From: a virus
Reading direction: 5' to 3' (one strand)
Virus record (IMG/VR): IMGVR_UViG_3300027763_000043
Coordinates: 28,974 to 92,973 of that record
Length of the DNA: 64,000 bases
Shown here: positions 45,332 through 60,105 of the stretch, piece by piece
Position numbering within the stretch: position 1 is the first letter of the stretch
How the letters are laid out: the number at the start of each line of letters is the position of its first letter
Made by a program: the position numbers and the translations under genes
Notes under the pieces: generated by a model
Told to the model about the DNA's origin: nothing
Seen by the model: the letters and a program-made list of their open reading frames with translations, nothing else
The model's database searches: none

Positions 45332-48300
45332 CTAGAACATTATGTCCAATGCTTTGAATGGATATTTTCTTGGAAGTATTGAATTAGATCCTACAGTGGT
45401 TTTAATCACAACTTGTGTCCCTACGGGAAGTGATTCTGTAAATTTAATATACCCATCATAATCAATTGTATATCCATCATTCGTACACAATAAACTAGTA
45501 TTCCAAACATATTCACTATTATGAATATACGCAGATTGAAGAACACCATTTATAGTAATCAATAATCTAAATGGATTTTCAATCAGAACAGTATTATAAT
45601 TATATTTTGGGACAAAAGTATTACTATAACCATTAGTTGCAGAAGTAATGTCATCCAATTCATATAAATCACCAATACTGGCAGTAAGATTAGTGAGTTG
45701 AGATCCATCGCCATAATAAGTAATGATACCAGTAGTTGCTTTTATAGTACCGGAAGAAATCTTAACTGTACCTAATGTAGCAATACCAGAAATATTTAAA
45801 GAAGTTCCTGCAATATCCGAACCACTTATAGTCCCACTACCAATTAATGCTCCATTAACATAAAATCCATTAGCAGAAGTAACACTACCGATAAAATAAC
45901 CACTACCACCAACCCAGAGTTTAGATGTTGGATTTGTGGTCCCAATTCCCAAACTTGAAGTAGAAGCATTGAAGATTAGATTTGGATTTGAATTTAATGA
46001 TGCAGTGGGATTTGCATCTGGTGTTTGGGAAAATACAATACTTGTTGATGTATTTGTTGTATTTGTTGAAAGAGCCACACTCTGAGCAGATGCCGCAGAC
46101 CCAATTCCAGTTAGTTTTGAACCATCACCATAATAAACAACAGTAGTAATTCCAGGATTTGATGATGTTATAATACCTAAAATACCATCAATTAATATAC
46201 CAGTAGATCCAACACCAACCGTAGCAATACCAGAAACACTGAGGTTATTGGATGCTTTAATACTACCAAATACATCTAAATTTGTAGTTGGATTTGTAGT
46301 TCCAATGCCAAGATAACTCAGAGCAGGATTGAATACGATAGAATTAGATGATACCGAAATGCTAGAAATCGTTCCACTATTATTTTGAGATAGTAAAGGA
46401 TAATAAGTTTGATTAGTATCAATATTTGAAATTATACTTGGAATATTACCCGTCAGATTAGATCCATCACCATAATAAACAACAGTAGTAATTCCAGGAT
46501 TTGATGATGATATAATACCAGTAATACCATTAATTAATATACCAGTAGATCCAACACCAACCGTAGCAATACCAGTAACATTAAGTTTCTGCGATGTTAA
46601 ATCAGTGGTACTAGTGACTCCTAAGGTAGTGATGCCAGAAACATTTAACTGTTTTGAAGTTAAACTGGTAGTACTAGTGATTCCAAGAGTAGAAATTCCA
46701 GAAACATGAAGTTGAGTAACTGATGCAATGCCACCAATAACATTTTCAGCAGTAAGAGCAACACCAACAGAATTACCTTGAGCTACTGGAGAACCATTGA
46801 TATCACCATAAAATGTAATAATACCAGAATTATTTGCTCTTATAGTACTAGAAGAAATATTAAATGCACCTATTGTACCAATTCCAGAAATACTTAATCC
46901 AGTACCTACAATATCTGCACCGGTTATAGATCCACCACCAATTAATGCCCCATTAACATAAAAACCAGAAGAAGTAACAATTCCAGTAAAGTAACCATCA
47001 CCTTCAACAAAAAGTTTAGATGATGGATTAGTTGAACCAATTCCAACATTAAATAAACTATTACCAATAATCCAAGAATTAGTTCCAGAACCAATTTTTA
47101 ATTGATCAGAACCAGTTGTGTCTGGTAATTGAACCTCAAATCCAATTGCAATGTTTCTATCACCAGCAGTTTGAGTGCATCCCGAACGAGTACCAAAGAA
47201 AGTATTATGCCATCCGTTCGAATTGGATCCCGAATGTTTACCAAAAAAGTTATTATATCTTCCAGTAACAACATTAATACCCGCCCACATTCCAAAGAAA
47301 TTATTATATTTACCGGTAGTGGCATTTTCTCCCGCACCAAATCCAAAAAAGTTATTATAAGATCCAGAGGTTATAGTTTTTCCAGCACCAGCACCAAATA
47401 TATTATTATGTTTACCACTAGATTGTCCAGATTGCCCTTTACCTGCTTCTTTACCAAAGAAATTATTGTAACATCCAGTAGTATTATAATATCCCGCAGA
47501 TTCACCAAAGAAATTATTCCATTTTCCAGTAGTATTATATCTTCCTGCTCCAGAACCGGCAAAAAAGTTATGAACCCCAGAAGTAATAGAACATCCAGTG
47601 GTATTATCACCAATTCTTATGTTATTATTTGTAAAACTTAAAGTTCCACCAATAGAAACAGTTGTTATTGGATTTGTGGTTCCAATACCCAATCTAGATC
47701 CAGAAGCATTAAATACTAAATTTGGATTAGTTTTTAATGTTGCTGCAATACTAACAGTAGGATCTGTTGCAAAAATTATGCTTGTAGTTTGATCACTTAG
47801 ATCAACTTCAATACTAACAGTCTGCGCCTGGGCAGCAGTACCAATACCAGTAAGTTGGGATCCATCACCATAATAGAAAACAGTACCAACACCCATATTT
47901 GCAGATGTTACAATACCCAATCCATTCTCAGATTTAATTAATACTCCATCAAATCCACCAAAGGTAGAAATACCAGAAACATTAAGTTTTTGTACTGTTA
48001 AATCAGTGGTACTGGTAACTCCTAATGTAGAAATACCGGAAACAGTAATATTAGTTACAATACCCGATGTAACATTAAGATTCGTAATAGTACCAGCAAT
48101 ACCAGTCAGGTTGGTTACAATGCCCGATGTAACATTAAGGTTAGTGATAGTACCCGCTACACCAGTTAGGTTAGTTACAATACCAGATGTTACTGTAAGG
48201 TTAGTGATAGTACCCGCTACACCGGTAATATTGGTAATAATACCCGATGTAACGGTAAGGTTAGTAATCGTACCGGCAATACCAGTCAGGTTAGTTACAA

Positions 48301-48865
48301 TACCTGATGTTACTTTAAGATTGGTGATTGTTGCTGCTATACCAGTCAGGTTGGTTACAATACCTGATGTAACGGTAAGGTTGGTGATTGTTGCTGCTAT
48401 GCCAGTCAGGTTAGTTACAATACCTGATGTTACTTTAAGATTGGTGATTGTGCCCGCTACACCAGTAAAGTTGGTAATGATACCAGATGTTACTGTGAGG
48501 TTGGTTATAGTACCCGCTACACCGGTAATATTAGTAACTATTCCAGAAGTTGCACTGAAGTTGATAATTGTACCAAGGCCAGAAATATTTAATCCAGTTC
48601 CTAAGATAGAACTAGCATTTATATTTCCAGTAAACTTACCATCTCCAATTACATCAAGTTTTACTGTTGGTACAGTAGATCCAATACCAACAAAAAATGA
48701 ACTTCCAATTTTTAAATCAGAATTTACCTGTCCACCAATACTAATATTGGTGCTAATTGCAACAGTATTTGCATTAATATTTAAGTTATTAGGGCTAGTA
48801 ATTGTTGGCGTACCAGATGCCCCGATTAAGCTAATCCTTTTTACGCCAAAATCCTTATCTGCCAT
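45332..48865 (-). CDS. Mosaic tail-fibre-like structural protein
   Basis: 20-aa TNLT repeats, NNFFG beta-roll, YYGDGS.LT and GIGTTNP motifs. Confidence 0.75.
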   Translation of the reverse strand: MADKDFGVKRISLIGASGTPTITSPNNLNINANTVAISTNISIGGQVNSDLKIGSSFFVGIGSTVPTVKLDVIGDGKFTGNINASSILGTGLNISGLGTIINFSATSGIVTNITGVAGTITNLTVTSGIITNFTGVAGTITNLKVTSGIVTNLTGIAATITNLTVTSGIVTNLTGIAATITNLKVTSGIVTNLTGIAGTITNLTVTSGIITNITGVAGTITNLTVTSGIVTNLTGVAGTITNLNVTSGIVTNLTGIAGTITNLNVTSGIVTNITVSGISTLGVTSTTDLTVQKLNVSGISTFGGFDGVLIKSENGLGIVTSANMGVGTVFYYGDGSQLTGIGTAAQAQTVSIEVDLSDQTTSIIFATDPTVSIAATLKTNPNLVFNASGSRLGIGTTNPITTVSIGGTLSFTNNNIRIGDNTTGCSITSGVHNFFAGSGAGRYNTTGKWNNFFGESAGYYNTTGCYNNFFGKEAGKGQSGQSSGKHNNIFGAGAGKTITSGSYNNFFGFGAGENATTGKYNNFFGMWAGINVVTGRYNNFFGKHSGSNSNGWHNTFFGTRSGCTQTAGDRNIAIGFEVQLPDTTGSDQLKIGSGTNSWIIGNSLFNVGIGSTNPSSKLFVEGDGYFTGIVTSSGFYVNGALIGGGSITGADIVGTGLSISGIGTIGAFNISSSTIRANNSGIITFYGDINGSPVAQGNSVGVALTAENVIGGIASVTQLHVSGISTLGITSTTSLTSKQLNVSGITTLGVTSTTDLTSQKLNVTGIATVGVGSTGILINGITGIISSSNPGITTVVYYGDGSNLTGNIPSIISNIDTNQTYYPLLSQNNSGTISSISVSSNSIVFNPALSYLGIGTTNPTTNLDVFGSIKASNNLSVSGIATVGVGSTGILIDGILGIITSSNPGITTVVYYGDGSKLTGIGSAASAQSVALSTNTTNTSTSIVFSQTPDANPTASLNSNPNLIFNASTSSLGIGTTNPTSKLWVGGSGYFIGSVTSANGFYVNGALIGSGTISGSDIAGTSLNISGIATLGTVKISSGTIKATTGIITYYGDGSQLTNLTASIGDLYELDDITSATNGYSNTFVPKYNYNTVLIENPFRLLITINGVLQSAYIHNSEYVWNTSLLCTNDGYTIDYDGYIKFTESLPVGTQVVIKTTVGSNSILPRKYPFKALDIMF

Positions 48866-50992: not shown

Positions 50993-53900
50993 TCAAATCA
51001 TTGTCTCCCTACTAAATCTATAAGTTACTAGTCCACTTACACCACTTTCTGGAGTAAACAATAATTTACACATACCAGAAGAAACTGTTGCTCCGACTGA
51101 AACTATCAAACTTGGTTCAAACATAATTCCATATTCTTGAGAATATGCAGTTGTACCATTTTGCATCAAAAGAACCTTCTGTGCCTGCATGGAACTTGCA
51201 GATTGAACATAAATGGTATATTCTGCAGTTCTAAAATTGATAGAGGAAATTGAAAAACTGTCAATATCAGTACTTACACCAACAGAAGCTGAAAATGTTC
51301 CAACTCCTGTTTTTACACCATATATCTCAACTTGAATTGGTGTTGTTGGATTTGTGGACCCTATTCCCAAATTACCACTTACAAAAGCGCCACCAGTGAC
51401 TTGGAGTGGTTGTGATAGTGTTCCTGTTGAGGATCCAGTACTAATTAATACTGGACCGTTAGTAAATGTGGAAAGTCCAGTAACTTGGAGATCGGTAAAT
51501 GTATTAGGTGCATTAGCGATTGCCGTTTCAATTGTTTCCGTGGTTATAGCATCAAGAGAAGCAATGTTTTGCAGTTGTCTTGAAGAACTAATAACTTGAC
51601 TTGTACCAATATAATATGCGTTAGAAGTTGTAATTCCAGAAACATAAAGATTAGTTGCTGTTGCAATTCCTAAAGTAGCAATTCCAGTAATATTTAAATT
51701 TGTAAATGTTGCTGCTATACCAGTAATATTGGTAATGATACCTGATATTACATTAAGATTGGTTATAGTCGCTGCAACACCAGTAATATTGGTTACAATA
51801 CCAGATGTTACTGTAAGGTTGGTAATCGTACCGGCAATACCAGTAAAGTTGGTAATGATACCTGAAGTAACATTAAGGTTAGTAATAGTAGCAGCAATAC
51901 CAGTAAGGTTGGTTACAATCCCAGATGTTACTGTAAGGTTGGTAATCGTACCAGCAATACCAGTTAAGTTGGTTACGATACCTGAGGTTACTGTAAGGTT
52001 GGTAATCGTACCCGCTACACCAGTCAGGTTGGTTACGATACCTGATGTTACATTGAGATTCGTAATAGTACCAGCGATACCAGTAATATTGGTAATGATA
52101 CCAGATGTTACTGTAAGATTAGTAATAGTACCAGCGATACCAGTTAAGTTAGTTACAATACCCGATGTAACGGTAAGGTTCGTAATCGTACCAGCGATAC
52201 CAGTCAGGTTGGTTACGATACCTGATGTAACATTAAGATTCGTAATAGTACCAGCAATACCAGTCAGGTTGGTTACGATACCTGATGTAACATTAAGGTT
52301 GGTAATAGTACCAGCAATACCAGTAAAGTTGGTAATGATACCTGATGTAACATTAAGGTTGGTAATCGTACCAGCAATACCAGTAAAGTTGGTTATAATA
52401 CCAGATGTTACTGTGAGGTTGGTGATAGTACCAGCAATACCAGTAAAGTTGGTTACGATGCCTGAGGTTACTGTGAGGTTGGTTATAGTACCCGCCACAC
52501 CGGTAATATTGGTAATAATACCCGATGTAACGGTAAGGTTAGTAATCGTACCGGCAATACCAGTCAGGTTGGTTACAATACCCGATGTAACATTAAGACT
52601 GGTTATAGTGGCAGCAATACCAGTTAGGTTGGTTACAATACCCGATGTAACATTAAGACTGGTTATAGTGGCAGCAATACCAGTAAGGTTAGTTACAATA
52701 CCTGATGTTACTTTAAGATTGGTGATTGTGGCAGCTACACCAGTAATATTAGTAATGATACCTACTGTTGCATTAAAATCAGTAATAGTACCAGCAACAC
52801 CGGTAATGTAAGTGATAATTCCTACAGTACTGCTGATATCAGTAAAACTACCAGTTATAGCAGTAATTTGAGTATCAGTAACCTGAACCCCACCAACTGC
52901 TAAACGAACACCATTTGGTACAAGTGTAGATCCAATTCCAATTGCCTGATTAGATAACCAAGAATCGGTTGTACCAACACCATAAGTTCCCCCCTTAACC
53001 CACATAAATTGCTTATATGTATTTGGAAGACTACTAAGTCCAGTTCTTCCTAATGGAACTAACCAAGAACCTTCAGTACTTGCAATTGCAATGCCACCAT
53101 GATTTGCAGTATTATCCGTAGAAATATCATTTCCAAATGCATCAGTAGTAATACCAATTATAATATCCTTATCTTTAACTTGTAATGAAGCAACAGCAAA
53201 AATTGCATTAGTACCACCAACACTAACACTTCCAGTAATATTTAAATCACCAAAAACTGTAAAACTGTTTGAAGTCTGTAATCTATCCGCAGATACAGTA
53301 CCAGCATTTAAATTAGACGCATTTTGATAAAAAGTCCCAGGTTGATCATTCAAATACTGAACATTTAAATTTGAAACTAATGTAGATGAAGCAACAGAAA
53401 TTGGAGCAGTTCCATATACTATAGTAGAATCAAATCTAGATGCAGTTATAATACCAGAAGAATTAATATTAGTATTTGAAATATTGGCAATCGTACCAAT
53501 ACCAGTATAATTTAAATTAGTACCACTAAGATTGGTGATTGTGGCCGCTACACCAGTCAGGTTGGTTACAATACCTGAGGTTACATTAAGACTGGTAATT
53601 GTGACTGCTACACCAGTCAAGTTAGTTACAATACCCGATGTAACATTAAGATTTGTAATAGTACCTGCTACACCAGTAATATTAGTAATGATACCTGAGG
53701 TAACATTCAGATTCGTAATCGTACCTGCGATACCAGTTAAGTTGGTTACGATACCTGATATTACTGTAAGGTTCGTAATCGTACCCGCTATGCCAGTCAG
53801 GTTGGTTACAATACCTGATGTAGCATTCAGATTTGTTATAGTAACCGCTATGCCAGTTAGATTAGTTACGATACCTGAAGTAACATTAAGGTTGGTTATA

Positions 53901-55327
53901 GTACCAGCAATACCAGTTAAATTAGTTACAATACCAGAGGTAACATTGAGATTCGTAATCGTACCAGCAATACCAGTAATATTGGTAATGATACCAGAGG
54001 TAACGTTAAGACTGGTTATAGTACCCGCTACACCAGTAATATTGGTAATAATACCTGAGGTAACATTAAGATTAGTGATTGTTGCTGCTACACCAGTAAT
54101 ATTAGTAACTATTCCAGAAGTTGCATTGAAATTGGTTATAGTACCAATACCAGTATAATTTAAATTAGTACCACTAAGATTCGTAATAGTACCAGATACA
54201 CCAGTAATATTGGTAATAATACCAGATGTAACATTGAGATTAGTAATTGTTGCTGCTACACCAGTCAGGTTGGTAATAATCCCCGATGTTACTGTAAGGT
54301 TAGTAATCGTACCAGCGATACCAGTCAGGTTAGTTACAATACCCGATGTGACATTAAGGTTGGTGATTGTTGCTGCTACACCAGTCAGGTTAGTTACAAT
54401 ACCTGAAGTAACATTAAGGTTGGTGATTGTTGCTGCTACACCAGTCAGGTTGGTAATAATCCCCGATGTTACTGTAAGGTTCGTAATCGTACCCGCTACA
54501 CCAGTCAGGTTGGTTACAATACCTGAAGTAACATTAAGGTTGGTGATTGTTGCTGCTACACCAGTAATATTGGTAATAATACCTGATGTTACTGTAAGGT
54601 TAGTAATCGTACCAGCAATACCAGTCAGGTTAGTTACAATACCCGATGTAACATTAAGGTTCGTAATCGTACCCGCTACACCAGTCAGGTTGGTTACAAT
54701 ACCTGAAGTAACATTAAGGTTGGTGATTGTTGCTGCTACACCAGTAATATTGGTAATAATACCTGATGTAGCATTAAGGTTCGTAATCGTACCCGCTACA
54801 CCAGTAATATTGGTTACAATACCTGAAGTAACATTAAGGTTCGTAATCGTACCAGCGATACCAGTCAGGTTGGTTACGATACCAGAGGTAACATTAAGGT
54901 TGGTTATAGTAGCTGCAATACCAGTTAAATTGGTTACAATACCAGAGGTAACATTAAGGTTGGTTATAGTACCAGCAACACCGGTAATATTGGTAATAAT
55001 GCCTGATGTTACTTTAAGATTTACAATACTCCCAATACCAGTTATATTCCCATTTCTAGCAGTAAACTCATCAACTGTTAGATCATTGGAAATATATAAA
55101 TCTCTACCAACGTATAAATCTCCACCAGTAGTCGTAATACCTCCAGAAGATGCAAGTGTAGTAACTCCGGTTATTTCAGTATCACCAATGACATATAATT
55201 TTCTCCCCCCAGCGTTTGTCGTTCCAATGCCAACTTTACCAGTTACTTCAATAACTGTCTTATTTTCGGTATAAGAACTAATACCTACTTTAAGATTTTG
55301 TTGTCTACCGCTGAGATATTGCGACAT
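50993..55327 (-). CDS. Fibre-like structural protein with extensive 20-aa tandem repeats
   Basis: TNLTG(I/V)AGTITNL(N/T)VTSGI(V/I) repeated roughly 40 times in two blocks. Confidence 0.8.
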   Translation of the reverse strand: MSQYLSGRQQNLKVGISSYTENKTVIEVTGKVGIGTTNAGGRKLYVIGDTEITGVTTLASSGGITTTGGDLYVGRDLYISNDLTVDEFTARNGNITGIGSIVNLKVTSGIITNITGVAGTITNLNVTSGIVTNLTGIAATITNLNVTSGIVTNLTGIAGTITNLNVTSGIVTNITGVAGTITNLNATSGIITNITGVAATITNLNVTSGIVTNLTGVAGTITNLNVTSGIVTNLTGIAGTITNLTVTSGIITNITGVAATITNLNVTSGIVTNLTGVAGTITNLTVTSGIITNLTGVAATITNLNVTSGIVTNLTGVAATITNLNVTSGIVTNLTGIAGTITNLTVTSGIITNLTGVAATITNLNVTSGIITNITGVSGTITNLSGTNLNYTGIGTITNFNATSGIVTNITGVAATITNLNVTSGIITNITGVAGTITSLNVTSGIITNITGIAGTITNLNVTSGIVTNLTGIAGTITNLNVTSGIVTNLTGIAVTITNLNATSGIVTNLTGIAGTITNLTVISGIVTNLTGIAGTITNLNVTSGIITNITGVAGTITNLNVTSGIVTNLTGVAVTITSLNVTSGIVTNLTGVAATITNLSGTNLNYTGIGTIANISNTNINSSGIITASRFDSTIVYGTAPISVASSTLVSNLNVQYLNDQPGTFYQNASNLNAGTVSADRLQTSNSFTVFGDLNITGSVSVGGTNAIFAVASLQVKDKDIIIGITTDAFGNDISTDNTANHGGIAIASTEGSWLVPLGRTGLSSLPNTYKQFMWVKGGTYGVGTTDSWLSNQAIGIGSTLVPNGVRLAVGGVQVTDTQITAITGSFTDISSTVGIITYITGVAGTITDFNATVGIITNITGVAATITNLKVTSGIVTNLTGIAATITSLNVTSGIVTNLTGIAATITSLNVTSGIVTNLTGIAGTITNLTVTSGIITNITGVAGTITNLTVTSGIVTNFTGIAGTITNLTVTSGIITNFTGIAGTITNLNVTSGIITNFTGIAGTITNLNVTSGIVTNLTGIAGTITNLNVTSGIVTNLTGIAGTITNLTVTSGIVTNLTGIAGTITNLTVTSGIITNITGIAGTITNLNVTSGIVTNLTGVAGTITNLTVTSGIVTNLTGIAGTITNLTVTSGIVTNLTGIAATITNLNVTSGIITNFTGIAGTITNLTVTSGIVTNITGVAATITNLNVISGIITNITGIAATFTNLNITGIATLGIATATNLYVSGITTSNAYYIGTSQVISSSRQLQNIASLDAITTETIETAIANAPNTFTDLQVTGLSTFTNGPVLISTGSSTGTLSQPLQVTGGAFVSGNLGIGSTNPTTPIQVEIYGVKTGVGTFSASVGVSTDIDSFSISSINFRTAEYTIYVQSASSMQAQKVLLMQNGTTAYSQEYGIMFEPSLIVSVGATVSSGMCKLLFTPESGVSGLVTYRFSRETMI
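51700..55020 (-). repeat. Two blocks of degenerate 60-bp coding tandem repeats (about 51700-52830 and 53530-55020)
   Basis: 60-nt periodicity visible; variation is mostly synonymous. Confidence 0.9.
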
Positions 55328-55684: not shown

Positions 55685-58600
55685 CTAACCTCCGAGTGCA
55701 AGAATAAATGGTGTCATAGTAGAGAACAAACTCTTCGAATAAAATCTACCAGAAATAGTTCCAGTTTGTTGATTAATTGCAACACCTTCACCAATTCTAA
55801 AATTACCAGATTGATCAGTAGATGTAAAAACTACCAATCCACCATTTCTAGAATCAGTCTCATTATCTTGAATTGGAACTCCTCCCCTCAATGGAACAGC
55901 GCTTGCAATATCATTACCAGATCCAATATATTCAAAAGAATGCCCAGAAGCTAATACTCTACTTTGCTTGTAGAAAAGAACCTCAGTACCAACTCCTACA
56001 GAATAAGGAAGATTTTCATTTACGGTAATCGTAGTAATTCCAGAAGAAACTGGAGTAGATCTCAAAATGGAATAGTAAGTAGGCAATAATTCAATTGTTG
56101 CCGTTGCTGTATTTATTCCAATATTCGGGGAACTAATTGTTATTGTTGGAGATTTAGTATATCCTCTTCCATTTGATACAATTTCAAATCCAGTAACCGA
56201 TCCACCACTAATTACTGCAACTGCTGTTGCCACTACTCCCCAAGAAGTATCTGGTTCCGAAATTGTTACTGTTGGGGTAGTAATATATCCAGTGCCACCA
56301 AATCCCACAGTTACTTTCCCAACAGTGGAATATAAATCCCCAAAATAAACTACTTGCCCATCAAATGGTCGGACTACATTTATTTTAGCAGTTCCAGTAT
56401 TAGGAACATAAGTATGTGGTTGAGTTGCAATACCAACATTCATCGTGAATACAGTACTTGCCATTGAAACTGATGGAAGTCCAGTCAAACTTCCCTGACC
56501 AACAAATGTAGTCAGAATTCCAACAAGATTATCAATATTTGATTTAACATCAGAACAAGACAATGGATCCGTATTAGAACCAGTTAGAGGATCTATAGCA
56601 ACAGTCAAGTCCTTCACATTTAACATATTGTTAATTGCAAGTTTAGAATAATCACGAACTGCATTAAATGCAGTAATTGATTCCACAGTTTCACCAACTA
56701 ATCCATTAGAAATTGGAGTTCCCGAACTTGTAAAATATGACTTTGTTGCTGCAATAATACTTTTATTTGTATAGTTTTTAACATCAGAAGCAACGGCATC
56801 AACAATATAACCAAGATCTCTTTTACACTTAGATTCACCTGCCAAAAATGTTCCACGATTTATAGTAATATTATTGAGAATGTTTAGATTACCAGCACCA
56901 ATTGCTTGAGTTGAAATACTAACAAGAGTATCAATTGAATCTCTTACATTTGTACAGGAATATGGATTTGTATTTGAGGTAGTTCCAATTCCTGGATTTG
57001 GATCTGCAGTGATTGTAAGATCCCTCACATTTAATTGGTTTGTAATCGCCTTCTTAGCATAATCACGAGCACTATTAAATGCATAGATCGATTGAGATTC
57101 TTCACCCAGAAGTGCGGTCGTAGCAGACCCAACACTAGTAAAGTATTGTTTAGTAAATCCAATTGTATAAGAATTTCCACCAGTAAACAAATCGGTAGAG
57201 ATAGCATCCACAAAGTAACCAATATCTCTAGCACACTTATTTGTTGTAGAAATACCAAGATTTGTTGTGGGTAATGAAGTTGTATTTCCTATTCCAATTA
57301 CAGTAGTGATGATACTAACCAGAGTATTAATACTATTCTGAACATCAGCACATGCATTCTCATTTCCAGATTGATCAACTGTAATTGTATTTCCAGTACC
57401 AACATAAGTTGACAATCCAGCACTAACTAAAAGATTCTTAGAATTCAATTGATTTGATACTGCTTTCTTAGCATAATCTCTTACAGCATTGAAGGCAGTG
57501 ATTGATTCATTTGTTTCACCAACTAATCCATTAGAAATTGGATTACCAGAATTATCAAAATACTTTAATACAAATCCTTTTGCATAAGCATTACCACCAG
57601 TAAATACATCAGTTGCAAGGGCATCAATCAAGTATCCAATATCTCTAGCACATTTTGTTCCACCAGTGGTAAAACTACCGAGATTTGTTGTTGGTAATGA
57701 AGATGTATTTCCTGCACCAATTGTAGTAGTAACAATGCTTGTTAAAGTATCAATATTATCCTGCACATCAGAACAAGATAATGGACTTGTATTTGCAACT
57801 GGGAATGGACTTCCGGATCCTATTCTAGCAGGCCCAGTAGTAAGAGTTAAATCAGAATACCCAGCGCCAACAAGATTATTTGTTATTGCATTCTTCATTA
57901 AATTTCTTGCTTGTTCGAAGGCAAAAATTGATTCGACAGTTTCACCAACTAATCCATTTGAAATTGGATTTCCTGCACCATTAAAATATTGTAAAGTGAA
58001 TTGTTTTACATAATTATTTCCACCAGTAAAGACATCGGCAGACACTGCATCAAGAAAAAATCCAATATCTCTTTTACACTTTACTTGAGTTGCAGAAATA
58101 CTTGGATATGAATTATAAGTATTGGTCCAAGCAGTTCCAACAATCACATCTCGGTTTCTTTGAATTAAACGATACGCATCATAATATCTCGATCTACTAT
58201 TTGTTTGAGAATCTCCAGGAAAATAAAAATCAGAATGAGCAATCGCAACTACAGCAAGTGATTTATCAATAATTTCTTGTTTATTGATTTGAATTAAACG
58301 AGAAGCATCATAATAACGATTTTGATTATAAGGAACAGGGTCCGTGGGAAATCTAAAGGATGATGGAAAACCAACAGCAATAGAAGCAAGTGATTTATCT
58401 ACAATTTCTTGCTTATTTTGTTGAATTAAACGATAAGAGTCCTTATATCGATAAGAAACATCATTTACAGAATCTCCAGGAAAAACAAAATCTGGATGAT
58501 TGATTGCAATTGCTGCAAGAGATTTATCAACGATTTCAGTTCTATTTGATGTGATTAAATTGCCTGCATCAATATATCTTCCAGGAGCAACCGATTTAAT

Positions 58601-59677
58601 GTCAAAAACATATCCCTTTTGGCCACTTGGATAATATCTGATTCCTGGTTCATAGGGGCAAGTAAATCCAAGTCCAGCAATAGTTACTCCCATTCCAACA
58701 GAAAAGTTGTGAGGAACTGAAGTATATGCCTTCAGAATTCCAGTAACATTATTATAAGAAGCATTTGTAATATTTAAAGTTGGTGTTGATATATCTAATA
58801 CGAATGTGTCCGCATTTGCATCAGCAGTAGTTGTAATAATTCCAATATATTTTAATGGACTTGTGCCATCAGCAACGAGACCATAAGTACCAAATGATGA
58901 GTTAGAGTTTGTAAGATCACATGCACCACCAGTTCCACAGTAAACTGCAATGTCATCACAAATTGTAAAGAGAGACACCAACTGGGCATAACCCTCATTG
59001 GTCATTGATGCACCAATACCACCCTGATTATATTGAGTATAAGAATCAAGAACCATTGACTTTAATGGACCCAATGCATGATCACCATTAACTTTTAATC
59101 CTATGCTTCCAGGAATAAAATTAGTACAGTTCTGAATATATGGAGATTGATCAATATATCTCTGATTATTTGGATTAAATGCTACAGCTGCACCACCATT
59201 AGATACCGATCCACTAGGAACAGTAAAGGACATTTCGGCAATATAGCATCCAGTACCAACATAAAATAAGTCCGAATTAATATTCTGGGGTTGAACTTCT
59301 ACTTCTCTTAAACTATCCCCAACAATACTAACTTGATCTGGTAATTCAATTGGATTATTTTCTATATAACGTCCAGCACTAACTCTAATAACAGTTCCTG
59401 CGGAGGAAATTGAGACTGCTCCTTTAATGGTTGCTTTTGCGTCTCCGAGTTTGAGTCCTGTGTTTGCGTCGTTTCCGTCTCTTGTGACATAGATAACATT
59501 AGTAACTGTTGTGCCCGCACCAATACGAATAATATCTGTACCGATACCAGGACGCTCTCTCTTAGCAACCAGTTCACCGTCGTAAGTATTATATGCTAAT
59601 TCAGCACTTAAGAGTTGATCTGGTGTAGGTCTTTTTCCAGGTACGACAGATCTTTTAATCCTGATGGGAGTTGACAT
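55685..59677 (-). CDS. Virion structural/tail-spike-like protein with beta-helix and four inserted phycobiliprotein-like domains
   Basis: N-terminal IRIKRS...ELAYN..DG anchor; YV..DGND...G beta-helix start; four KC(A/K)RD(I/L)G(Y/F) repeats. Confidence 0.75.
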   Translation of the reverse strand: MSTPIRIKRSVVPGKRPTPDQLLSAELAYNTYDGELVAKRERPGIGTDIIRIGAGTTVTNVIYVTRDGNDANTGLKLGDAKATIKGAVSISSAGTVIRVSAGRYIENNPIELPDQVSIVGDSLREVEVQPQNINSDLFYVGTGCYIAEMSFTVPSGSVSNGGAAVAFNPNNQRYIDQSPYIQNCTNFIPGSIGLKVNGDHALGPLKSMVLDSYTQYNQGGIGASMTNEGYAQLVSLFTICDDIAVYCGTGGACDLTNSNSSFGTYGLVADGTSPLKYIGIITTTADANADTFVLDISTPTLNITNASYNNVTGILKAYTSVPHNFSVGMGVTIAGLGFTCPYEPGIRYYPSGQKGYVFDIKSVAPGRYIDAGNLITSNRTEIVDKSLAAIAINHPDFVFPGDSVNDVSYRYKDSYRLIQQNKQEIVDKSLASIAVGFPSSFRFPTDPVPYNQNRYYDASRLIQINKQEIIDKSLAVVAIAHSDFYFPGDSQTNSRSRYYDAYRLIQRNRDVIVGTAWTNTYNSYPSISATQVKCKRDIGFFLDAVSADVFTGGNNYVKQFTLQYFNGAGNPISNGLVGETVESIFAFEQARNLMKNAITNNLVGAGYSDLTLTTGPARIGSGSPFPVANTSPLSCSDVQDNIDTLTSIVTTTIGAGNTSSLPTTNLGSFTTGGTKCARDIGYLIDALATDVFTGGNAYAKGFVLKYFDNSGNPISNGLVGETNESITAFNAVRDYAKKAVSNQLNSKNLLVSAGLSTYVGTGNTITVDQSGNENACADVQNSINTLVSIITTVIGIGNTTSLPTTNLGISTTNKCARDIGYFVDAISTDLFTGGNSYTIGFTKQYFTSVGSATTALLGEESQSIYAFNSARDYAKKAITNQLNVRDLTITADPNPGIGTTSNTNPYSCTNVRDSIDTLVSISTQAIGAGNLNILNNITINRGTFLAGESKCKRDLGYIVDAVASDVKNYTNKSIIAATKSYFTSSGTPISNGLVGETVESITAFNAVRDYSKLAINNMLNVKDLTVAIDPLTGSNTDPLSCSDVKSNIDNLVGILTTFVGQGSLTGLPSVSMASTVFTMNVGIATQPHTYVPNTGTAKINVVRPFDGQVVYFGDLYSTVGKVTVGFGGTGYITTPTVTISEPDTSWGVVATAVAVISGGSVTGFEIVSNGRGYTKSPTITISSPNIGINTATATIELLPTYYSILRSTPVSSGITTITVNENLPYSVGVGTEVLFYKQSRVLASGHSFEYIGSGNDIASAVPLRGGVPIQDNETDSRNGGLVVFTSTDQSGNFRIGEGVAINQQTGTISGRFYSKSLFSTMTPFILALGG

Positions 59678-59733: not shown

Positions 59734-60105
59734 TCAAGTCGCATTATTGCGTCTTGGACGATAAGCATAAAGATTAGTAGGTGCCTCAGGTTTCATCCAT
59801 TCTTCTATCTTATTAAATTTATCTTCATTATAAAAATCTTGCTGAACATACCATAACTTCCAATGATCATGCCCCTTCGACTGATTGCAAGAATGGCAAC
59901 AAGCAACTACGTTTGTCTTAATATCAAGTCCACCTTTACACTGTGGAGTAATGTGATCTAGTGTGATATTTTCTTCAGAATCACAATAGGCGCACTTATT
60001 TTCCCATTGATCCTTTATATTTTTTCTCCACAATCGTTTTGCATCTGCTTTACTCGTTGTTTCCAAATTAAACAAGTAGTCCTTAAACGAATGTAGAGGA
60101 ACCAT
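59734..60105 (-). CDS. HNH endonuclease
   Basis: CAYC...LDHI.P..KGG...NVVACC..CN..KG. Confidence 0.88.
   Translation of the reverse strand: MVPLHSFKDYLFNLETTSKADAKRLWRKNIKDQWENKCAYCDSEENITLDHITPQCKGGLDIKTNVVACCHSCNQSKGHDHWKLWYVQQDFYNEDKFNKIEEWMKPEAPTNLYAYRPRRNNAT

What the first reader, a model, noticed from the sequence alone, without database searches (positions are those of the whole stretch)
56480..58580. Four phycobiliprotein-like domains with bilin-site cysteines inside a virion structural protein
Seen: four repeats KC(K/A)RD(I/L)G(F/Y) with Cys codons at 58076, 57650, 57233 and 56825. Each is followed by ES..AF..(A/V)R and a second Cys motif (LSCSDVQ, NACADVQ, YSCTNVR, LSCSDVK). Upstream are repeats such as RYIDAGNLITSNRTEIV and TNTYNSYP. 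Known (recalled): phycocyanin alpha has KCARDIGYYLR...AGGT at the Cys84 chromophore site and AVYNKFP before it; beta subunits have RLDAVN.ITSNAS.IV and a second bilin Cys in GDCS. Inference: a captured globin-like phycobiliprotein fold displayed on a tail-spike-like protein. It might bind bilins (pigmented or light-responsive virion, light-dependent adsorption), mimic phycobilisome components, or use the Cys pair as a disulfide.
Basis: partly seen in the sequence, partly recalled or inferred. Interest (0 to 1): 0.9.

Follow-up and report, generated by a model that had tools for sequence, protein, structure and literature searches.

The report
Nested phycobiliprotein domains in cyanophage fibre
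A tail-fibre protein of a marine cyanobacterial virus contains four domains, nested inside one another, that are true relatives of its host's light-harvesting pigment proteins and keep both pigment-attachment cysteines, so it can now be tested whether the virus particle carries pigment; pigment binding itself is not shown.

Summary
ORF 55685-59677 (-) encodes a 1330-aa tail-fibre protein with four KCxRD motifs and four partner cysteines at the stated codons.

The region is not four tandem domains. It is four short N-terminal pieces (SR1-4) followed by four long pieces (L1-4). The counts of the two kinds match in 113 of 121 homologues, and all 113 read as balanced brackets, which indicates nested domains.

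The one contiguous domain (residues 497-664) folds with pLDDT 92 and pTM 0.89. It matches phycobiliprotein beta subunits (VIA Z 15.3, rmsd 2.1 A over 136 residues), and the top 50 Foldseek hits are all phycobiliproteins. hhalign gives 95.7% probability.

Cys534 corresponds to Cys84. Cys635 aligns with beta-Cys155, the site served by T-type lyases. The second cysteine is present in 487 of 490 units.

Across 24 cyanomyovirus genomes, the domain and the T-type lyase gene cpeT occur together in 17, both are absent in 6, and S-SKS1 has the domain alone. In four lineages cpeT lies just upstream of the fibre gene.

Bilin binding is inferred (about 50%) and is not shown. The same scan has already noted this family in at least 23 other genomes. 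I found no paper describing it.

The parts
55685..59677 (-). ORF of 1330 aa: tail-fibre or baseplate-fibre virion protein
   Evidence: PHROG tail-fibre families phrog_17885 (E 4.7e-180) and phrog_4527. The S-SKS1 orthologue SWZG_00012 is annotated as tail fiber protein.
58589..59677 (-). N-terminal domain, residues 1-363 (beta-helix-like, shared with fibre and baseplate proteins of S-SRM01, P-SSM2 and S-SKS1)
   Evidence: PF07602 (DUF1565) 22.7 bits. 73.7% nucleotide identity to S-SRM01 gp329 'baseplate wedge subunit', which lacks the array. blastp to S-SKS1.
58445..58588 (-). SR1, residues 364-411: N-terminal half (helix A/B) of the outermost domain, inferred partner L4
58310..58441 (-). SR2, residues 413-456: N-terminal half, inferred partner L3
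58181..58309 (-). SR3, residues 457-499: N-terminal half, inferred partner L2
   Evidence: PF00502 19.7 bits on residues 369-404 of the SR region.
57686..58189 (-). Innermost, contiguous phycobiliprotein-like domain, residues 497-664 (SR4 + L1), with Cys534 (Cys84-type, codon 58076-58078) and Cys635 (Cys155-type, codon 57773-57775)
   Evidence: AF2 pLDDT 92.1, pTM 0.89. Foldseek top 50 all phycobiliproteins. VIA Z 15.3 to phycoerythrin beta. hhalign 95.7%. Global alignment to beta subunits.
57269..57676 (-). L2, residues 668-803: helices E, F', G, a long loop and helix H. Cys676 (57650-57652) and Cys776 (57350-57352).
56861..57259 (-). L3, residues 807-939. Cys815 (57233-57235) and Cys908 (56954-56956).
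56432..56851 (-). L4, residues 943-1082. Cys951 (56825-56827) and Cys1041 (56555-56557).
55688..56431 (-). C-terminal domain, residues 1083-1330 (fibre tip, probable receptor-binding part)
   Evidence: phrog_17885 best stretch 1047-1329. 45% identity to the C-terminus of the S-SKS1 tail fibre. The receptor-binding role is inferred.

Best explanation
Shown (about 95% sure): the central 720 residues of this virion fibre protein are four phycobiliprotein (PBP) globin domains of the beta-subunit type, without the X-Y hairpin. They were built by repeated insertion of a whole domain into the loop between helices B and E of another copy. The chain therefore reads SR1-SR2-SR3-SR4-L1-L2-L3-L4. Each domain keeps the Cys84-type cysteine in a K-C-x-R-D motif and a second cysteine just before the last helix, at the position of beta-Cys155.

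Inferred (about 50%): during late infection these domains are chromophorylated in the host cytoplasm. The Cys155-type site would be served by a T-type lyase, either the phage's CpeT where present or the host's. The Cys84-type site would be served by a host S-type lyase or by autocatalysis, as in ApcE. The assembled fibre would then carry covalently bound bilins.

What the pigment does is open: it may stabilise the fold or respond to light.
For: Homology and fold: PF00502 36.4 bits against a cut-off of 22.2. hmmsearch of repeat profiles against the PDB returns only phycobiliproteins or the allophycocyanin-derived smURFP. hhalign gives 95.7%, E 1e-8. AF2 of residues 497-664 gives pLDDT 92.1 and pTM 0.89. 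VIA gives Z 15.3, rmsd 2.1 A over 136 residues to phycoerythrin beta, with the next seven hits also phycobiliproteins or ApcE, while other globins score 6-11. The Foldseek top 50 are all phycobiliproteins, mostly beta chains.

Nesting: SR and L counts are equal and bracket-balanced in 113 of 121 near homologues, and 17 of 18 balanced distant ones are valid nested strings, up to n=13. The wrong phase folds poorly, with pLDDT 73 and pTM 0.48.

Site conservation: the Cys84-type Cys is 78/78 and 43/43, Asp87-type 78/78 and 43/43, Arg86-type 78/78 and 37/43, Lys83-type 75/78 and 40/43. The partner Cys is present in 487 of 490 units and aligns with beta-Cys153.

Lyase link: T-type lyases are specific for Cys-beta155 (PMC2327270). 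The domain and cpeT occur together in 17 genomes, neither in 6, the domain alone in 1, cpeT alone in 0. cpeT lies 1-6 kb upstream of the fibre gene in S-PM2, Syn1, S-CAM1 and a 194-kb phage contig.
Against: No chromophore has been shown, and I know of no report of pigmented cyanophage particles. S-SKS1, a near relative with an orthologous fibre, has the domain with both Cys but no CpeT or CpeS gene, and reads NCADD instead of KCxRD. The own record (40% complete) shows no cpeT, bilin reductase or haem oxygenase. P-SSM2 makes bilins (pebS, ho1, pcyA) yet has no such domain, so phage bilin synthesis is not tied to it. The domain lacks helices X and Y, and a hairpin replaces helix F, so the pocket may differ. 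The co-occurrence is not corrected for phylogeny. Conserved cysteines in an extracellular protein could instead form disulfides between domains or between chains.
Confidence: 0.5

Rival explanations
1. Pigment-free structural module. The PBP fold was captured once and is now only a rigid, nestable building block that lengthens the fibre. The conserved cysteines form disulfides between domains or chains (or have some other redox or metal role) in the oxidising sea water. The K-C-x-R-D motif is kept for packing of helix E.
For: Copy number varies freely from 1 to more than 13 per protein, as for spacer modules. S-SKS1 keeps the domain without any phage lyase and has lost the Arg. The X-Y hairpin and helix F are lost. 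No pigment has been reported for virions (my knowledge).
Against: Both cysteines sit at the two canonical bilin sites. By homology these sites are too far apart for a disulfide within one domain (recalled beta84-beta155 distance of about 34 A in C-phycocyanin, not measured on the model). The residues kept invariant are those that contact the bilin in phycobiliproteins, whereas residues used for alpha/beta pairing are not kept. This reading leaves unexplained the near-perfect co-occurrence with, and adjacency to, a lyase specific for the Cys155 site.
Confidence: 0.4
2. The similarity to phycobiliproteins is convergent or due to chance, and the domain is an unrelated helical bundle.
For: Single repeats score below the Pfam cut-off (17-19.7 bits).
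Against: In the correct phase, VIA gives Z 15.3 with phycobiliproteins in all eight top places. hhalign gives 95.7%. All 61 PDB sequence hits are phycobiliproteins or the allophycocyanin-derived smURFP. Eight consecutive residues (KCARDIGY) are identical to those of phycocyanin alpha.
Confidence: 0.02
3. The domains act inside the infected cell rather than on the virion. For example, they might serve as decoy substrates that soak up host lyases or bilins, or as mimics that bind phycobilisome parts.
For: The phage also manipulates host pigments through cpeT, pebS and nblA in relatives.
Against: The domains are embedded in giant fibre and baseplate proteins, between a conserved N-terminal attachment part and a C-terminal tip. 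That is a costly place for a cytoplasmic decoy. The X-Y hairpin needed for phycobilisome assembly is absent.
Confidence: 0.05

Closest known systems
Phycobiliprotein beta subunits (CpcB, CpeB and cryptophyte beta chains; Pfam PF00502)
   Same: The globin-type fold from helix A/B to helix H (Z 15.3, TM 0.56-0.67). A Cys84-type cysteine in C-x-R-D. A second cysteine directly before helix H, like beta-Cys153/155.
   Different: There is no X-Y hairpin, so no alpha/beta heterodimer or ring is expected. A hairpin replaces helix F. The G-H loop is about 37 residues long. The domain is embedded in a virion fibre. Copies are nested in one chain. The chromophore is unproven.
ApcE (core-membrane linker) bilin-binding PB domain
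   Same: A PBP domain that forms part of a much larger protein. It is interrupted by an insertion between helices B and E, the same site as the nesting here. It binds bilin without a separate lyase (PMC2327270). VIA Z 12.2-13.7.
   Different: ApcE's insert is a loop, not another PBP domain. ApcE has one site, a different cysteine, and sits in the phycobilisome core.
Other bilin-binding or sensor globins (photocobilin globin domain, RsbR N-terminal domain, globin-coupled sensors)
   Same: The same fold class, used as a sensor module in larger proteins (Z 10-11).
   Different: Clearly more distant than phycobiliproteins. There is no shared C-x-R-D motif and no sequence-level match.
Cyanophage CpeT (T-type bilin lyase homologue, an auxiliary gene of unknown role)
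   Same: It is encoded by nearly every phage that has the domain and is sometimes adjacent to the fibre gene. T-type lyases serve Cys-beta155.
   Different: It is a separate gene and was not found in this 40%-complete record. I recall that the phage protein binds phycoerythrobilin but that its substrate is unsettled (Gasper et al. 2017, which could not be read here).

Membership tests
Phycobiliprotein family (PF00502) | Sequence match to the family profile above the curated cut-off | tested here: met
   36.4 bits against 22.2 for the whole protein. hhalign of the domain profile against 10 true phycobiliproteins gives 95.7%, E 1e-8. Single repeats alone fall below the cut-off.
Phycobiliprotein family (PF00502) | Globin-type core fold (helices A/B, E, F', G, H) | tested here: met
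   AF2 pLDDT 92.1. VIA Z 15.3, rmsd 2.1 A over 136 residues, model 1-158 against phycoerythrin beta 34-184. Foldseek top 50 all phycobiliproteins. A hairpin replaces helix F.
Phycobiliprotein family (PF00502) | N-terminal X-Y helix hairpin that mediates alpha/beta pairing and ring assembly | tested here: not met
   Structural matches start at residue 34-36 of phycobiliproteins. The preceding sequence is another SR piece. Arg93 of phycobiliproteins is Asp here.
Phycobiliprotein family (PF00502) | Cys84 attachment cysteine with the Arg86 and Asp87 bilin contacts | tested here: met
   C 78/78, R 78/78 and D 78/78 in A2. C 43/43, D 43/43 and R 37/43 in A4. These are aligned to C84, R86 and D87.
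Phycobiliprotein beta subunits | Second attachment cysteine (Cys153/155) in the G-H loop just before helix H | tested here: met
   A Cys 82-104 residues downstream in 487 of 490 units. It sits at model residue 139, directly before helix 140-159. It aligns with the GDC motif of three beta subunits in a global profile alignment, where column confidence is low.
Phycobiliprotein family (PF00502) | Covalently bound bilin chromophore | not testable with these tools
   No bilin ligand is offered by the folding tools, and model coordinates are not returned. This needs expression or virion mass spectrometry.
T4-like cyanophage tail-fibre / baseplate-fibre proteins | Homology to virion fibre families and a position among structural genes | tested here: met
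   phrog_17885, 4527 and 5342. Neighbours are virion structural, baseplate wedge and tail-fibre families. The S-SKS1 orthologue is annotated as tail fiber. Presence in particles was not tested for this phage.

The most novel reading that the evidence does not exclude
The fibre is a virion-borne bilin photoreceptor. Light absorbed by the bound bilins changes the fibre so that the phage adsorbs only in the light. This would explain the unexplained light-dependent adsorption of S-PM2, P-HM1 and P-HM2, and would give phage cpeT a substrate. Consistent with this, S-PM2, P-HM1 and P-HM2 carry the domains, while P-SSM2 and P-SSP7, which adsorb in the dark, carry none. That amounts to only about three independent lineages.
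Probability: 0.15. Interest if true: 0.95.

Novelty: new variant of a known kind. Interest (0 to 1): 0.8.

Why it matters
Phycobiliproteins are known as antenna proteins inside cells. Here the same fold, with both pigment-attachment sites kept under strong constraint, sits in the adsorption apparatus of abundant ocean viruses. 1270 representative clusters match the profile, and the best 150 are mostly giant proteins of up to 7903 aa.

If the domains carry bilin, three puzzles become testable:
- why most cyanomyoviruses encode a T-type lyase without the rest of the phycoerythrin operon (PMC3037559);
- why adsorption of some cyanomyoviruses needs light independently of photosynthesis (PMC6628666);
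- whether a virus particle can be a photoreceptor.

Independently of pigment, the balanced-bracket arrangement of half-domains, up to 13 deep, is a striking case of recursive domain insertion. It is also a warning for repeat annotation, because the apparent tandem repeat unit is in the wrong phase.

Tried and rejected
1. Treating the obvious 140-aa tandem repeat (Cys-helix + E-F-G) as the domain. AF2 gave pLDDT 73 and pTM 0.48, Foldseek found nothing significant, and VIA gave Z of at most 5.8. The phase was wrong.

2. A disulfide staple between the two Cys of a unit was my leading idea. I dropped it as the main reading once the second Cys mapped to the beta-155 position. It could not be measured, because model coordinates are not returned.

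3. Local hhalign of the L unit against phycobiliproteins aligns only helix E. Only the global mode reaches helix H.

5. Pairwise identities among the SR and L pieces, meant to infer which SR pairs with which L, were uninformative.

6. The scan of bacterial and archaeal genomes found only 7 loci, all in MAG contigs that look like binned phage DNA. True phycobiliproteins were not picked up by the pattern used.

7. The own record has no PcyA/PebS, CpeT, haem oxygenase or CpeS, but it is only about 40% complete.

8. The SR profile is too specific for the distant giant proteins: 127 of 146 gave unbalanced strings. The nesting rule is therefore established mainly for near homologues.

9. Literature searches for any description of PBP-like domains in phage virions found none. 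Gasper et al. 2017 could not be read.

Full report
**What is there.** The window is part of a 92,973-bp IMG/VR virus record, about 40% complete. It has about 35% G+C. Its nearest isolates are the T4-like cyanophages S-SRM01, S-SKS1 and P-SSM2/5. The finding lies in ORF 55685-59677 (-), 1330 aa. PHROGs places the protein in tail-fibre families (phrog_17885 E 4.7e-180, phrog_4527). The downstream genes are virion structural, baseplate-wedge and tail-fibre families, and an HNH endonuclease gene lies upstream. The S-SKS1 orthologue has the same N- and C-terminal parts and the same upstream HNH gene, and is annotated as tail fiber protein.

**Homology to phycobiliproteins.**
- Pfam PF00502 scores 36.4 bits against a cut-off of 22.2. 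Single repeats score 17-19.7 bits.
- A profile of 78 diverse repeat units (A2) matches only phycobiliproteins in the PDB: 35 of 35 hits, best CpcA at E 2.3e-4, with the repeat Cys on Cys84.
- tblastn finds the region in 313 phage records, all cyanophages.
- 590 homologues were retrieved, and many of the 120 listed carry a precomputed PF00502 hit.
- A profile search of 1.84 billion representatives finds 1270 clusters. The best 150 are mostly giant proteins, with up to 35 matched stretches each.

**The repeat phase and nesting.** The apparent 140-aa tandem unit folds poorly (pLDDT 73, pTM 0.48) and gives no clear structural match. Two sequence-only observations corrected the phase.

1. The Cys of C-x-R-D has a partner Cys 82-104 residues downstream in 487 of 490 units. 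This includes the last unit of an array, which is closed by an extra helix. The first unit usually has no Cys upstream.
2. A note from the same scan on this very stretch spoke of 'Russian-doll' nesting, so I counted the short N-terminal repeats (SR, about 44 aa) against the long units (L). In 121 near homologues, 113 have equal numbers, and every one of these is a valid balanced-bracket string, for example S4L4, S5L5, S6L6, S4L4S3L3 and S3L3S2L2. The other eight are unbalanced.

Among distant giant proteins the SR profile is too weak, and 127 of 146 are unbalanced. Of the 18 balanced ones, 17 are valid nested strings, including one with 13 pairs.

This grammar is what repeated insertion of a whole domain between its own N-terminal half and C-terminal half would produce. 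In the window the only contiguous domain is SR4+L1. SR3/L2, SR2/L3 and SR1/L4 are inferred pairs.

**Fold.** SR4+L1 (residues 497-664), with an alignment of 43 such innermost domains (A4), folds with pLDDT 92.1 and pTM 0.89 into six helices.
- Foldseek's top 50 PDB hits are all phycobiliproteins, mostly beta chains (TM 0.56-0.67, probability 1.0, E from 2.5e-3).
- VIA-align against 48,161 chains puts phycoerythrin beta first (Z 15.3, rmsd 2.1 A, 136 residues, model 1-158 against chain 34-184).
- Next come allophycocyanin, the ApcE bilin domain and other phycobiliproteins (Z 12.2-13.9).
- After those come RsbR, photocobilin and sensor globins (Z 8-11) and haemoglobins (Z 6-7).
- hhalign of A4 against ten true phycobiliproteins from a marine Synechococcus genome gives 95.7%, E 1e-8, with domain 3-66 on PBP 38-110.

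The domain starts where PBP helix A/B starts, so the X-Y hairpin used for alpha/beta pairing is absent. The insertion site is the B-E loop, the same place where ApcE carries its loop insertion.

**The two cysteines.** Cys534, 676, 815 and 951 are the Cys84 equivalents.
- The Cys is invariant in both alignments, and so is the Asp87 equivalent.
- The Arg86 equivalent is 78/78 in A2 and 37/43 in A4.
- The Lys83 equivalent is at least 93%.
- By contrast Arg93, an alpha/beta pairing residue, is Asp here.

Cys635, 776, 908 and 1041 sit directly before the last helix (model residue 139). In a global profile alignment with three beta subunits they fall on the Cys of the GDC motif, beta-Cys153/155. The alignment as a whole has 90.9% probability, but column confidence there is low. 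From what I recall, the beta84 and beta155 chromophores of C-phycocyanin are roughly 34 A apart, so a disulfide within one domain is unlikely. This is inference and was not measured on the model.

**Link to a lyase.** T-type lyases (CpcT) attach bilin specifically at Cys-beta155, and ApcE binds its bilin autocatalytically (PMC2327270). I tested 24 complete or near-complete cyanomyovirus genomes with the domain profiles and with Pfam CpeT (PF06206).
- Both present in 17: P-HM1, P-HM2, S-PM2, Syn1, P-SSM4, Syn9, P-RSM4, P-SSM7, Syn19, Syn33, S-ShM2, S-SSM5, S-SM1, S-SCSM2R, S-CAM1, a 249-kb IMG/VR genome and a 194-kb phage contig. The P-SSM7 and S-ShM2 CpeT matches are weak: 28.6 and 23 bits summed, against a cut-off of 21.
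- Both absent in 6: P-SSM2, P-SSM5, S-SM2, S-SSM7, S-SRM01 and S-B05.
- Domain only in 1: S-SKS1.
- CpeT only in none.

By my own arithmetic the one-sided Fisher probability is about 5e-5, uncorrected for phylogeny, and the six negatives may be few lineages.

In S-PM2 (1.4 kb), S-CAM1 (1.1 kb), Syn1 (about 1.1 kb) and the 194-kb contig (about 6 kb), cpeT lies just upstream of the fibre gene on the same strand.

There are counter-points. S-SKS1, the nearest isolate with an orthologous fibre, has one domain with both Cys but no CpeT or CpeS gene, and reads NCADD in place of KCxRD. P-SSM2 has bilin-synthesis genes but no such domain. The own record shows no lyase or bilin genes in its 93 kb.

**Light.** Liu et al. 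2019 (PMC6628666) report the following. P-HM1 and P-HM2 do not adsorb in the dark. P-SSM2 and the podovirus P-SSP7 do. S-PM2 adsorption is light-dependent and independent of photosynthesis. [quoted passage not shown] The domain is present in S-PM2, P-HM1 and P-HM2, and absent from P-SSM2 and P-SSP7. This fits a light-sensing fibre, but it rests on about three independent lineages. The domain is also present in most cyanomyoviruses, so it is only a lead.

**Verdict.** It is well supported that the region is a genuine phycobiliprotein-derived fold. The nested architecture is strongly supported by the sequence grammar and by the fold of the contiguous domain. Chromophore binding is a reasoned inference at about even odds. 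The main rival is a pigment-free structural module whose cysteines serve another purpose.

No paper in the searchable library describes PBP-like domains in phage virions. Automatic Pfam labels do exist on many homologues. This scan has already noted the family in at least 23 other genomes, with similar readings. Those notes are not independent evidence.

Noticed in passing
own record G000:C1:21649-22119 (-), about 7 kb before the window start; locus L081: A second virion-type ORF (1204 aa) carries one complete, contiguous phycobiliprotein-like domain (A4 profile 1-153, E 4.4e-42; PF00502 23.6 bits).
   Followed up: partly
window 59734-60105 (-): An HNH endonuclease gene lies directly upstream of the fibre gene. 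The same arrangement is seen in S-SKS1 (SWZG_00013) and S-SRM01 (gp328), so the endonuclease is conserved at this fibre locus.
   Followed up: partly
L121 (S-SRM01 NC_070963, 212414-214273): The S-SRM01 orthologue (gp329, 619 aa) shares the N-terminal 358 residues at 73.7% nucleotide identity but has no PBP array, and S-SKS1 has one domain where this phage has four. The array is gained, lost and resized within one orthologous gene.
   Followed up: partly
L107 (S-PM2 NC_006820, 165928-177267): The RefSeq record lists 16 tRNA features inside the 3779-aa 'short tail fiber' CDS that holds PBP-like domains. This looks like an annotation conflict.
   Followed up: no
L084-L089 (MAG contigs labelled Planctomycetaceae, Verrucomicrobiales, Rhodobacteraceae, Chitinophagales, Proteobacteria): These contigs hold weak to moderate matches to the phage PBP-like unit. 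They are probably cyanophage or other phage contigs binned into bacterial MAGs.
   Followed up: no
window 50993-55327 (-) and 45332-48865 (-): Two more large fibre or baseplate-type ORFs (1444 and 1177 aa) lie directly downstream, with only weak PHROG matches. They contain no PBP-like domain.
   Followed up: partly
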